A DNA stretch of 64,000 nt from a virus (lineage: Duplodnaviria; Caudoviricetes), in IMG/VR virus record IMGVR_UViG_2974630879_000001, positions 1-64,000 of that record. One strand, 5' to 3'. A model generated the notes under the pieces. That model was not told the DNA's origin. It searched no databases and saw only the letters and a list, made by a program, of their open reading frames with translations. Position numbers and translations under genes: made by a program. Shown here in pieces: positions 19,527 to 19,686 of the stretch. Numbering within the stretch: position 1 is the first letter of the stretch; every line of letters begins with the position of its first letter.

Positions 19527-19686
19527 GGTGTGGGTGCGATCAGAGACATCTGATAGCTTCCATAATGCAACTACGTCTGCTTGCAGGCTAGTGAGCTTCT
19601 GTACGACATTAGTAGTTGGCTGTTGCAGCCTCACCAACGTTGTCAAGTACAGCATGCAGGTAATCAATCCTGTGCCTACACCGCCA
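19527..19686 (+). ncRNA. 160-nt expanded tRNA-like RNA ending G-CCA
   Basis: GGTGTGGG/CCTACACC acceptor-like stem, T-like arm GCAGG/CCTGT, three internal arms. Confidence 0.6.

What the first reader, a model, noticed from the sequence alone, without database searches (positions are those of the whole stretch)
19527..19686. 160-nt expanded cloverleaf ending in G-CCA
Seen: 8-bp acceptor-like stem GGTGTGGG(19527-34)/CCTACACC(19675-82) followed by G-CCA. A T-like arm GCAGG(19656-60)/CCTGT(19669-73) abuts it. Three internal arms occupy D, anticodon and variable positions: ATCAGA/TCTGAT (19539-54), TGCAA/TTGCA (19566-85, 10-nt loop), and a ~50-nt arm closed by GTAC/GTAC and GACA/TGTC (19601-50). 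Established: G73 plus a long variable arm are SerRS determinants. Inference: a doubled-size tRNA-shaped RNA processed like a tRNA but with no usable 7-nt anticodon loop.
Basis: partly seen in the sequence, partly recalled or inferred. Interest (0 to 1): 0.7.

Follow-up and report, generated by a model that had tools for sequence, protein, structure and literature searches.

The report
Anticodon-less giant tRNA mimic in phage
An N4-like phage carries, directly after its tRNA-Gln gene, a 160-base gene-like unit that keeps the amino-acid-accepting end of a tRNA but cannot read codons; its tRNA-type hairpin is the same unusual hairpin found in the enigmatic ROOL RNA and in a widespread family of phage tRNA look-alikes, and its job is unknown.

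Summary
Window 19527-19686 (+) folds into a 9-bp end-to-end helix (two G-U pairs) stacked on a 5-bp T-type hairpin, followed by G-CCA, with three internal hairpins. The claimed "anticodon" pairing (TGCAA/TTGCA) is disfavoured (p 0.01); a 9-bp hairpin with a CUUG loop forms there instead.

It is not a tRNA. ARAGORN finds nothing, even with introns allowed and relaxed thresholds, and Rfam 15 has no credible match.

It lies 11 nt after tRNA-Gln in a 2.7-kb ORF-free island. Every module there, tRNA or mimic, ends in NCCA, and 9 of 12 are preceded by AT. Only one strong terminator follows, at 20260-20295.

New here: its T hairpin (loop UAAUCAAU, 8 nt) is the conserved hairpin of ROOL RNA. It also occurs in an uncatalogued family of 70-200-nt phage RNAs built on a tRNA-Leu-like scaffold with variable inserts.

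The body of the RNA has no homologue in the GenBank phage, IMG/VR, metagenome or GTDB searches run here, so there is no covariation evidence for its internal arms.

Best reading (0.58): a non-decoding tRNA "top-half" mimic cut out by RNase P, function unknown. Its closest named analogue is T4 RNA C. This scan has noted similar phage tRNA-mimic families before on other DNA.

The parts
19516..19526 (+). 11-nt U-rich spacer/leader (ATTCTTTTTAT) between the CCA of tRNA-Gln and the first base of the element; ends in AT
   Evidence: Nine of 12 modules in the island have AT at -2/-1; the AT dinucleotide frequency in the window is 0.065.
19527..19535 (+). 5' strand of the acceptor-type end helix (GGTGTGGGT)
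   Evidence: Pairs with 19674-19682, 9 bp with 2 G-U, pair probability 0.92-1.0.
19536..19557 (+). D-position hairpin: GC/GC extension around a 6-bp stem ATCAGA/TCTGAT with a GACA tetraloop. It lacks the G18G19-type D loop.
   Evidence: p 0.77-1.0. Model R1 finds no D stem here.
19558..19566 (+). 9-nt single-stranded junction (TTCCATAAT)
19567..19596 (+). Second arm: 9-bp bulged hairpin (core 19570-19592) with a CUUG tetraloop at 19580-83.
19599..19652 (+). 54-nt long arm: CTGTAC/GTACAG plus GACA/TGTC, internal loops, and the apical hairpin GGCTG-TTG-CAGCC (19618-30)
   Evidence: p 0.93-0.98
19656..19673 (+). T-type arm GCAGG / CCTGT with the 8-nt loop TAATCAAT. The hairpin is identical to the conserved ROOL hairpin and to the T arm of the family-L tRNA-like RNAs.
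19674..19682 (+). 3' strand of the acceptor-type helix (GCCTACACC), directly abutting the T stem
19683..19686 (+). Unpaired G (discriminator position) plus encoded CCA
   Evidence: All 7 tRNAs and the other mimic modules of the island also end in NCCA.
19687..19693 (+). 7-nt trailer (TCTCAAT) leading to the next CCA-ended module (19694-19743)

Best explanation
Window 19527-19686 (+) is a gene for a non-decoding, tRNA-like stable RNA. It is a 'top-half' tRNA mimic inside the polycistronic tRNA/ncRNA island of an N4-like (Schitoviridae) phage.

Shown from the sequence:
- Its two ends form an 8-9 bp acceptor-type helix stacked on a 5-bp T-type hairpin, followed by G-CCA.
- The middle consists of three hairpins (6-bp/GACA, 9-bp/CUUG, and a 54-nt arm) that offer no anticodon loop.
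- The T hairpin carries an 8-nt variant T loop (UAAUCAAU, pattern UANYNAAU). This is the hairpin conserved in ROOL RNA and in an uncatalogued family of phage RNAs built on a tRNA-Leu-like scaffold with variable inserts.

Inferred:
- The island is transcribed as one unit ending at the terminator at 20260-20295.
- Host RNase P cuts 5' of G19527, helped by U at -1, the G1-C72 pair, the acceptor/T stack and the GCCA. The 3' end is trimmed to CCA like those of its tRNA neighbours, releasing a discrete RNA of about 160 nt.

More speculative: the RNA acts by presenting a tRNA acceptor/T minihelix to a partner that normally binds tRNA ends. That partner could be a processing, CCA or charging enzyme, or an acceptor-end-targeting defence nuclease. 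The lineage-specific arms would add stability or a second binding surface. Its actual role is unknown.
For: Anatomy and stability:
- The helices are well supported thermodynamically.
- A motif of end helix, abutting 5-bp hairpin and NCCA is rare by chance: about 1.5 per 64-kb strand in simulations. On the + strand it otherwise picks out 6 of the 7 real tRNAs plus two other sites.

Context:
- The element starts 11 nt after tRNA-Gln in an ORF-free island.
- Every module ends in NCCA, 9 of 12 have AT at -2/-1, and spacers are 7-16 nt.
- There is one strong terminator, at 20260-20295.
- The ORFs across the region have no Pfam or PHROG hit.

Not a tRNA:
- ARAGORN finds nothing, with or without introns and with lowered thresholds.
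- Rfam has no match to tRNA, tRNA-Sec, tmRNA, ROOL or manA.

Kinship of the top half:
- The exact T-hairpin 16-mer lies inside 12 ROOL RNAs scoring 250-310 bits, at the conserved GGUAAUCAAUCC of the Rfam model.
- It is also the T arm of tRNA-like RNAs with covarying acceptor stems. Some of those sit 6-10 nt from tRNAs on the same strand.
- A covariance model built from 19 such RNAs hits 19528-19682 full length at 21.1 bits. E is 8.5e-5 in 4 kb and 0.005 in 236 kb. It was the only hit with E below 0.01; the next was the Pokken tRNA-Gln at 14.1 bits, E 0.38.
- None of 195 ARAGORN-called tRNAs in the fetched loci has this loop variant.

Precedent and neighbours:
- T4 rnaC (139 nt, in the tRNA cluster) also has a T arm abutting its closing stem. 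Its role is unknown (PMC3014915).
- Relatives carry other acceptor-stem elements at the same slot, CCA-ended in Pokken and Piffle.
Against: - No homologue of the RNA body was found, so there is no covariation support for any helix of this RNA. Searched: GenBank phages, IMG/VR, metagenomes and GTDB genomes. Near relatives may be masked by the tools.
- There are no expression or end-mapping data.
- The coaxial stack is 13-14 bp, not the 12 bp that RNase P and other enzymes measure.
- The tRNA-Leu-type D arm that defines the related family is absent.
- Model R1 also scores genuine class II tRNAs at 20-23 bits. Its hit therefore shows 'tRNA-like top half with a long insert', not specific family membership.
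- ARAGORN seeds on canonical T loops, so the absence of the variant loop among called tRNAs is partly built in.
- The end helix alone is not statistically remarkable: about 0.4 are expected in the island by my estimate.
- The decoy or partner-binding role has no direct support.
Confidence: 0.58

Rival explanations
1. It is not a separate RNA. It is the 5' domain of one large multi-domain structured RNA spanning about 19527-20258, an 'ornate' RNA in the manner of ROOL or GOLLD. The end helix merely closes a domain, and the CCA is a relic.
For: - The whole stretch 19516-20295 is ORF-free, structured and ends at a single terminator.
- The T hairpin is a ROOL hairpin.
- Relatives keep 630-870 nt of non-coding RNA after tRNA-Gln, with shared motifs.
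- GOLLD is reported to embed tRNAs (PMC12286853, PMC12990946).
Against: - The leader, NCCA and short-spacer punctuation matches that of the real tRNAs.
- The slot between tRNA-Gln and the conserved downstream motif is variable. It is empty in Paxi and L011, so the downstream RNA does not need this domain.
- No sequence complementary to the T loop exists in the island.
- Rfam ROOL and GOLLD do not match.
Confidence: 0.15
2. It is a decaying tRNA-derived remnant with no function of its own: a duplicated tRNA or tRNA-like gene whose centre was overwritten by insertions. It would be tolerated because it is still excised from the transcript.
For: - It is an orphan sequence with no detectable relatives.
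- The slot turns over quickly among relatives.
- The tRNA-type D arm has been lost.
Against: - The fold is more stable than shuffles (z = -2.86), with three well-defined hairpins.
- The end helix, T hairpin and GCCA are intact.
- The phage keeps four to five other CCA-ended mimic modules.
- The T hairpin is an exact copy of a motif conserved across very different phages.
Confidence: 0.12
3. It is a cis-acting regulatory or riboswitch-like element of the manA type, rather than a trans-acting RNA.
For: A family-L relative (L061) weakly matches Rfam manA (25.8 bits, below the threshold of 55.2). manA RNAs are proposed riboswitch candidates in phages (PMC2864571).
Against: - This element itself does not match manA.
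- It is not upstream of a gene; the next ORF starts at 20307, behind a terminator.
- It lies inside a tRNA array.
Confidence: 0.04
4. It is a working but unconventional tRNA: intron-containing, or of the tRNA-Sec/allo-tRNA type. Supporting features would be the 8-9 bp acceptor, the 6-bp D stem with a 4-nt loop, the long extra arm and G73.
For: The helix lengths recall bacterial tRNA-Sec (8/5 branch, 6-bp/4-nt D arm, long variable arm, G73). That comparison rests on my own knowledge of tRNA-Sec and on PMC5389517 for allo-tRNAs.
Against: - No 7-nt anticodon loop exists in any favoured or alternative fold.
- ARAGORN with introns and low thresholds finds nothing.
- Rfam tRNA and tRNA-Sec do not match even at E up to 10 on the 185-nt stretch.
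- The junctions (9, 2 and 3 nt) are not tRNA-like.
Confidence: 0.02
5. There is no RNA element: the pairings are chance complementarity in a spacer.
For: There is no covariation for this locus, and the 9-bp helix with two G-U pairs is not rare on its own.
Against: - The combined motif is rare in simulations.
- The fold has z = -2.86.
- The T hairpin matches a conserved ROOL / family-L hairpin exactly, at the correct position relative to the end helix.
- The leader and trailer are regular.
Confidence: 0.05

Closest known systems
Phage T4 RNA C (species 1 RNA, rnaC) and RNA D (rnaD)
   Same: - Small stable RNAs of 120-140 nt encoded inside a phage tRNA gene cluster and co-transcribed with tRNAs.
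- rnaC has a T arm (CCGGG-UUCGAAU-CCCGG) abutting the helix formed by its two ends, plus expanded internal hairpins.
- Function unknown (PMC3014915).
   Different: - No sequence similarity; R1 scores rnaC at only 9.8 bits.
- T4 rnaC has a canonical 7-nt T loop and no encoded CCA.
- This RNA has the 8-nt variant loop, a 9-bp end helix and an encoded GCCA.
Uncatalogued phage 'family L': a tRNA-Leu-like scaffold with variable inserts
   Same: - End helix plus abutting T arm GCAGG-UANYNAAU-CCUG(C/U).
- Twenty bases of the T-arm region are identical to members L061/L064.
- U-G follows the acceptor.
- A 20-160 nt insert stands where the anticodon and variable arms would be.
- Lengths are 70-200 nt; some members lie within tRNA arrays.
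   Different: - Family L has a 7-bp acceptor and the invariant D arm GGCGGAAUUAGACGC, a tRNA-Leu D arm without G18G19.
- This RNA has 8-9 bp and a different 6-bp/GACA hairpin.
- Most family-L members lack an encoded CCA.
ROOL RNA (Rfam RF03087)
   Same: - Shares the conserved hairpin GGUAAUCAAUCC (model positions about 424-435).
- Lives in phage tRNA islands (PMC5737381, PMC12286853).
   Different: - ROOL is about 580 nt with many junctions and pseudoknots, and assembles into nanocages.
- Nothing else in the 160-nt RNA matches it, and Rfam gives no ROOL hit.
mascRNA / MEN-beta tRNA-like elements, and acceptor-T minihelix model substrates
   Same: tRNA-shaped modules without decoding function that are recognised and cut by RNase P, with 3'-CCA-end biology (my own knowledge; RNase P and RCCA substrates are treated in PMC12710915 and PMC4919913).
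   Different: Those are eukaryotic, or synthetic and about 35-60 nt long. There is no homology, and here the body is 120 nt of extra hairpins.
Bacterial tRNA-Sec and allo-tRNAs (PMC5389517)
   Same: Long acceptor (8-9 bp), a 6-bp D stem with a 4-nt loop, a long extra arm, and G73.
   Different: No anticodon loop; the acceptor plus T stack is 13-14 bp rather than 12-13 bp; loose junctions; no Rfam or ARAGORN match.

Membership tests
Canonical tRNA (Rfam RF00005 / ARAGORN) | Detected by the covariance model or by ARAGORN | tested here: not met
   There is no hit at the gathering threshold or at E up to 10. ARAGORN finds nothing with introns allowed or thresholds lowered to 70-80%.
Canonical tRNA (Rfam RF00005 / ARAGORN) | 7-nt anticodon loop on a 5-bp stem | tested here: not met
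   The arm at that position is a 9-bp bulged hairpin with a CUUG tetraloop. The alternative 10-nt loop has p = 0.01.
Canonical tRNA (Rfam RF00005 / ARAGORN) | 7-bp acceptor, one discriminator base, CCA | tested here: inconclusive
   The discriminator G and an encoded CCA are present, but the helix is 8-9 bp.
Canonical tRNA (Rfam RF00005 / ARAGORN) | T arm with a 5-bp stem and a 7-nt T-Psi-C loop; D loop with G18G19 | tested here: not met
   The stem is 5 bp but the loop is 8 nt (UAAUCAAU). The D-position hairpin has a GACA tetraloop.
Family L (phage tRNA-Leu-like scaffold with variable insert; unnamed) | T arm GCAGG-UANYNAAU-CCUGY abutting the 3' strand of the end helix | tested here: met
   The hairpin is identical, and the T-arm region matches L061 over 20 nt.
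Family L (phage tRNA-Leu-like scaffold with variable insert; unnamed) | D arm GGCGGAAUUAGACGC immediately after U8 | tested here: not met
   The R1 alignment deletes the D stem, and only U-G and AGA(C) align.
Family L (phage tRNA-Leu-like scaffold with variable insert; unnamed) | Significant score with a covariance model of the family | tested here: inconclusive
   The score is 21.1 bits (E 8.5e-5 to 0.005), the only hit with E below 0.01 in 236 kb. The same model gives 20-23 bits to T4 tRNA-Ser and tRNA-Leu.
ROOL RNA (RF03087) | Match to the 574-position model | tested here: not met
   There is no hit at E up to 10. Only the hairpin of about 16-18 nt is shared.
tmRNA | tRNA-like domain plus a tag reading frame | tested here: not met
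   ARAGORN -m and Rfam tmRNA give no hit.
manA RNA (RF01745) | Match to the model; position in a 5' UTR | tested here: not met
   This element gives no hit, whereas a family-L member scores 25.8 bits. The element is not upstream of a gene.
T4 RNA C-type stable RNAs of phage tRNA clusters | Encoded in the tRNA cluster; T arm abutting the end helix; 120-170 nt; non-decoding | tested here: met
   This is a functional and architectural class, not a homology family, and no sequence similarity was found.
T4 RNA C-type stable RNAs of phage tRNA clusters | Accumulates as a discrete stable RNA processed by host tRNA enzymes | not testable with these tools
   This needs RNA from infected cells.
tRNA-Sec / allo-tRNA | 12-13 bp acceptor/T branch with an anticodon loop (UCA or other) | tested here: not met
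   The branch is 13-14 bp and there is no anticodon loop.

The most novel reading that the evidence does not exclude
The 8-nt variant T hairpin (GGUAAUCAAUCC) may be a portable docking module. It is shared by ROOL nanocage RNAs, by the family-L tRNA-Leu-like RNAs and by this 160-nt RNA. On this reading, the phage's CCA-ended mimics are a dedicated class of trans-acting RNAs that use a tRNA acceptor/T 'top half' for one of two purposes. They could engage a common partner, for example as decoys or sponges for acceptor-end-directed host defence enzymes or for tRNA-end enzymes. Alternatively, they could dock onto the large structured RNA encoded just downstream. They would then be more than processing punctuation.
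Probability: 0.15. Interest if true: 0.85.

Novelty: new variant of a known kind. Interest (0 to 1): 0.55.

Why it matters
Phage tRNA clusters have been known since T4 to hold small stable RNAs of unknown role, and ROOL and GOLLD RNAs still have no known function.

This element is a clean example of an anticodon-less RNA that keeps only the enzyme-facing end of a tRNA. Its T hairpin links three things that were not connected in the papers I could search:
- ROOL;
- a widespread uncatalogued family of tRNA-Leu-derived phage RNAs;
- the mimic RNAs of an N4-like phage of Xanthomonadaceae-type hosts.

If that shared hairpin marks a common partner, it gives a concrete handle for asking what these RNAs do: a 12-nt motif to mutate, pull down, or locate in the solved ROOL structures.

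For annotation, the case shows that tRNA finders and Rfam miss a whole layer of phage RNA genes.

Tried and rejected
1. Intron-containing or low-scoring tRNA. ARAGORN with -i, -ps70/80 and the mitochondrial mode finds only tRNA-Gln.
2. Rfam at E up to 10 on the 185-nt stretch. The only hit is a spurious antisense match to the structure-less mammalian JPX_1 model.
3. Protein-coding reading. Four overlapping ORFs have no Pfam or PHROG hit, and the 134-aa ORF runs through tRNA-Gln.
4. Homologue hunts for the RNA body, all negative:
   - blastn against GenBank phages;
   - exact 20-22-mers in IMG/VR and metagenomes;
   - T arm plus N7-9 plus (G/N)CCA in metagenomes and GTDB genomes, which returned only family-L members or coding matches.
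   - Neighbour-gene searches found no closer relatives with tRNA islands.
5. A kissing partner for the T loop. No complement of 6 nt or more exists in the island.
6. A true four-way cloverleaf closed by AUGC/GCAU. It is 3 kcal/mol worse than the MFE, p < 0.01.
7. A third 'class' of hits to the hairpin 16-mer (L031 and others) looked like minihelices. It reads as the start of a conserved ORF (ATG GCA TTT GAA ...) and shows almost no covariation, so I discarded it as coding. About half of the 63 16-mer hits are of this kind or random.
8. Kinship with the neighbouring tRNA-Thr, suggested by 11 shared nt (TCAATCCTGTG). The stem register differs and the family-L/ROOL match is far better.
9. The ROOL papers and supplements did not say what the hairpin contacts.

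Full report
**Setting**

The window belongs to a 76,335-bp virus record with direct terminal repeats. Its nearest named relatives are N4-like Schitoviridae of Stenotrophomonas and Xanthomonas: Pokken, Piffle, Paxi, Philippe and PB119. DNA identity is only about 73-75% in the best-conserved genes.

ARAGORN finds seven tRNA genes at 18209-19515 on the + strand; the last is tRNA-Gln at 19441-19515. The finding starts 11 nt after it. From about 17592 to 20295 there is no credible ORF. The only strong intrinsic terminator on the + strand is at 20260-20295, just before a gene starting at 20307.

**Observation**

The minimum-free-energy fold of 19527-19686 is -58.8 kcal/mol, with z = -2.86 against dinucleotide shuffles. 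Pair probabilities give the following picture.

| Element | Coordinates | Support |
|---|---|---|
| End helix, 9 bp with two G-U pairs | 19527-35 / 19674-82 | p 0.92-1.0 |
| D-position hairpin, 6 bp, GACA loop, flanked by a 2-bp GC/GC extension | 19536-57 | p 0.77-1.0 |
| Second arm, 9-bp bulged hairpin, CUUG tetraloop | 19570-92 | p about 0.95 |
| Long arm, 54 nt | 19599-19652 | p > 0.9 |
| T-type hairpin GCAGG/CCTGT, 8-nt loop TAATCAAT, abutting the end helix | 19656-73 | p 0.9-1.0 |

The architecture is therefore right (end helix, three internal arms, T arm, then G-CCA), but the middle arm is a tetraloop hairpin.

A motif of a 7-9 bp end helix, an abutting 5-bp hairpin and NCCA turns up about 1.5 times per 64-kb strand in first-order Markov simulations. 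On the + strand it recovers six of the seven real tRNAs, this element and two other sites. The expectation for the roughly 2 kb of non-tRNA island is about 0.03-0.05.

**What it is not**

- It is not a tRNA. ARAGORN with introns allowed, with thresholds lowered to 70-80%, or in mitochondrial mode reports only tRNA-Gln.
- Rfam 15 has no tRNA, tRNA-Sec, tmRNA, ROOL, GOLLD or manA match even at E up to 10 on the isolated 185 nt. The single hit is an antisense match to a structure-less mammalian lncRNA model.
- The ORFs crossing the region have no Pfam or PHROG match, and the longest one runs through tRNA-Gln.

**Context supports a tRNA-like unit in an RNA operon**

All seven tRNAs encode CCA. So do the other non-tRNA modules whose ends pair:

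- 17603-17772
- 18292-18377
- 18551-18601
- 19694-19743
- a 47-nt hairpin at 18153-18199

I re-derived these from earlier leads of this scan.

Nine of twelve modules, including all five mimics and four tRNAs, are preceded by AT. The AT dinucleotide frequency in the window is 0.065. Spacers between modules are 7-16 nt and AU-rich.

The features bacterial RNase P uses on model substrates are all present: U at -1, a G1-C72 pair, an acceptor/T stack and a 3' GCCA. That list rests on established knowledge; see PMC12710915 and PMC4919913. Processing at 19527 and 19686 is inferred, not shown.

**The new link**

I searched IMG/VR for the exact 16-mer of the T hairpin (CAGGTAATCAATCCTG) and got 63 hits. 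About half are coding or random. One recurrent set reads as the start of a conserved ORF and shows no real covariation. The rest fall into two RNA contexts.

First, twelve hits lie inside ROOL RNAs scoring 250-310 bits. The hairpin corresponds to the almost invariant GGUAAUCAAUCC at model positions about 424-435, just after the variable linker.

Second, several hits are the T arm of RNAs whose ends form a covarying 7-bp helix. The conserved string GGCGGAAUUAGACGC follows that helix; it is a tRNA-Leu-type D arm lacking G18G19. Searching for that D-arm string independently retrieved more than 100 places. At least 23 distinct ones have the full architecture:

- a 7-bp acceptor
- U8
- the D arm
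- an insert of about 20-160 nt
- a T arm with GCAGG/CCUGC and mostly an 8-nt loop fitting UANYNAAU (a canonical T loop with one extra A after U54)
- then the acceptor 3' strand

All seven acceptor pairs covary, with the caveat that my extraction script required perfect pairing. Some members sit 6-10 nt from tRNAs on the same strand. One member weakly matches Rfam manA (25.8 bits, threshold 55.2). I found no paper naming this family. Earlier notes of this scan describe what appears to be the same tRNA-Leu-derived scaffold on other genomes.

**How close is the window's RNA to that family?**

A covariance model (R1) built from 19 members hits 19528-19682 full length at 21.1 bits. E is 8.5e-5 in 4 kb with filters off and 0.005 in 236 kb. 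It was the only hit with E below 0.01; the Pokken tRNA-Gln scored 14.1 bits at E 0.38.

The alignment uses the acceptor, the U-G after it and the T arm, and it deletes the D stem. The model is not specific: it gives 23.5 and 19.8 bits to T4 tRNA-Ser and tRNA-Leu. The solid statement is therefore limited. The T arm is of the ROOL/family-L type, with 20 nt identical to members L061/L064, and it sits at the right place relative to the end helix. The D arm that defines the family is missing.

None of 195 ARAGORN-called tRNAs in all fetched loci has the variant loop. ARAGORN is biased towards canonical loops, so this is only partial evidence.

**No homologue of the body**

All of the following were negative, returning only family-L members or coding matches:

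- blastn against GenBank phages
- exact 20-22-mers in IMG/VR and metagenomes
- a pattern of T arm, N7-9 and GCCA/NCCA in metagenomes and GTDB genomes
- neighbour-gene searches

The internal arms therefore rest on thermodynamics alone.

**Relatives show that the slot is variable**

Between tRNA-Gln and a conserved 50-nt downstream motif:

- Paxi has only a conserved hairpin of about 75 nt, and contig L011 has nothing but a short spacer.
- Pokken and Piffle have 58-59-nt acceptor-stem elements ending in GCCA.
- PB119 has a 100-nt 'tRNA-His' with an expanded anticodon arm.
- The window has this 160-nt RNA plus a 50-nt CCA-ended hairpin.

This favours independent, exchangeable modules over one obligatory large RNA.

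**Comparison with known systems**

The closest named analogue is T4 RNA C (species 1; 139 nt; in the tRNA cluster). It folds with a canonical T arm abutting its end helix. Its role, like that of RNA D, is unknown (PMC3014915).

The helix lengths also recall bacterial tRNA-Sec and allo-tRNAs: 8-9 bp acceptor, 6-bp/4-nt D arm, long extra arm and G73 (PMC5389517). There is, however, no anticodon loop and no model match.

**Mechanism, with odds**

- **About 0.58.** A discrete, non-decoding tRNA top-half mimic, excised by RNase P and 3' trimming. It would act through its acceptor/T minihelix and CCA end on some tRNA-end-binding partner. The partner is unknown.
- **About 0.15.** It is the 5' domain of a larger ornate RNA.
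- **About 0.12.** It is a functionless tRNA-derived remnant.
- **0.02-0.05 each.** A cis-regulatory element, an odd working tRNA, or chance.

**Verdict**

This is a real and unusual element and a new variant of a known kind (tRNA-cluster stable RNAs and phage tRNA mimics). The ROOL/family-L hairpin link is the most useful new lead.

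Noticed in passing
window 19747-19797 (also L001 2498-2548, L004, L005, L006, L007, L008, L010, L011, L019-L021): A nearly invariant motif of about 50 nt (CTGGATGACTTCATCCTTCAAGACGG...TAAATGTC..GAAGGGT). Its outer 5-bp stem covaries (AGAC/GTCT, GGTC/GACC, AGGC/GCCT, CGAC/GTCG). It is found in at least 12 phage contigs of different types. In some it follows tRNA-Gln, in some it heads long non-coding arrays, and in some it lies just 5' of a gene. There is no Rfam match.
   Followed up: partly
IMG/VR loci L041, L061, L064, L096, L100-L104, L109, L113, L117, L118, L121, L123, L126, L148, L155, L162, L165, L167, L169, L179, L182; metagenome loci L192-L196: A widespread uncatalogued family of 70-205-nt phage RNAs. 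Members have a 7-bp covarying acceptor helix, the D arm GGCGGAAUUAGACGC (tRNA-Leu type without G18G19), a highly variable insert, and a T arm mostly with the 8-nt loop UANYNAAU. One member weakly matches Rfam manA (25.8 bits). In L195 the D stem covaries (GAG/CUC).
   Followed up: partly
ROOL RNAs in L024, L029, L036, L042, L043, L048, L049, L053, L054, L069, L071, L079: The ROOL consensus contains the variant T hairpin GGUAAUCAAUCC. It also contains, about 200 nt upstream, a conserved single-stranded AAUAGACGC that resembles the family-L D arm (AAUUAGACGC). ROOL may therefore embed a D-loop/T-loop-like module. This was not checked against the 3D structures.
   Followed up: no
L001 2358-2415 (Pokken); L019 about 1857-1915 (Piffle); L021 1778-1877 (PB119): At the slot where the window has the 160-nt RNA, relatives carry different elements. 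Pokken and Piffle have 58-59-nt RNAs with a 6-7 bp end helix followed by GCCA. PB119 has a 100-nt annotated 'tRNA-His' with a greatly expanded anticodon arm. Paxi has no such element.
   Followed up: partly
L019 about 2504-2579, with the same element in L020 and L021, just before tRNA-Arg: A tRNA-like element of about 76 nt that the records do not annotate. It has the acceptor CCACACG/CGTGTGG and a canonical T arm GATGG-TTCGAAT-CCATC, but no normal D or anticodon arms.
   Followed up: no
window 19694-19743: A 50-nt long hairpin (GTCGCCC.../...GGGCGGC) ending in U-CCA. It lies 7 nt after the 160-nt RNA and 3 nt before the conserved motif.
   Followed up: partly
window 18153-18199: A 47-nt hairpin (AGCAACC.../...GGTTGCT) ending in G-CCA, 9 nt before tRNA-Met. 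It may be a further CCA-ended module of the island.
   Followed up: no
window 18209-18284: The tRNA-Met has a C1/A72 mismatch at the top of its acceptor stem, as bacterial initiator tRNAs do.
   Followed up: no
L004, L005, L006, L008, L011 (1-1.3 kb downstream of the conserved motif): Long ORF-poor arrays of repeated structured modules, closed by TTGATGGTG / CACCATCAA and studded with CCGGAAAGACGG-type hairpins. They probably represent another unclassified class of phage RNA.
   Followed up: no
L029 3860-3941 (- strand): An 82-nt stretch next to a ROOL RNA passes the Rfam tmRNA threshold (54.4 bits) while spanning the whole 374-position model. It looks like a tRNA-like-domain-only mini 'tmRNA'.
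   Followed up: no
window 19272-19440 and 18887-19195: Two further ORF-free gaps of 170 and 310 nt between tRNAs, with obvious hairpins. I did not examine them.
   Followed up: no
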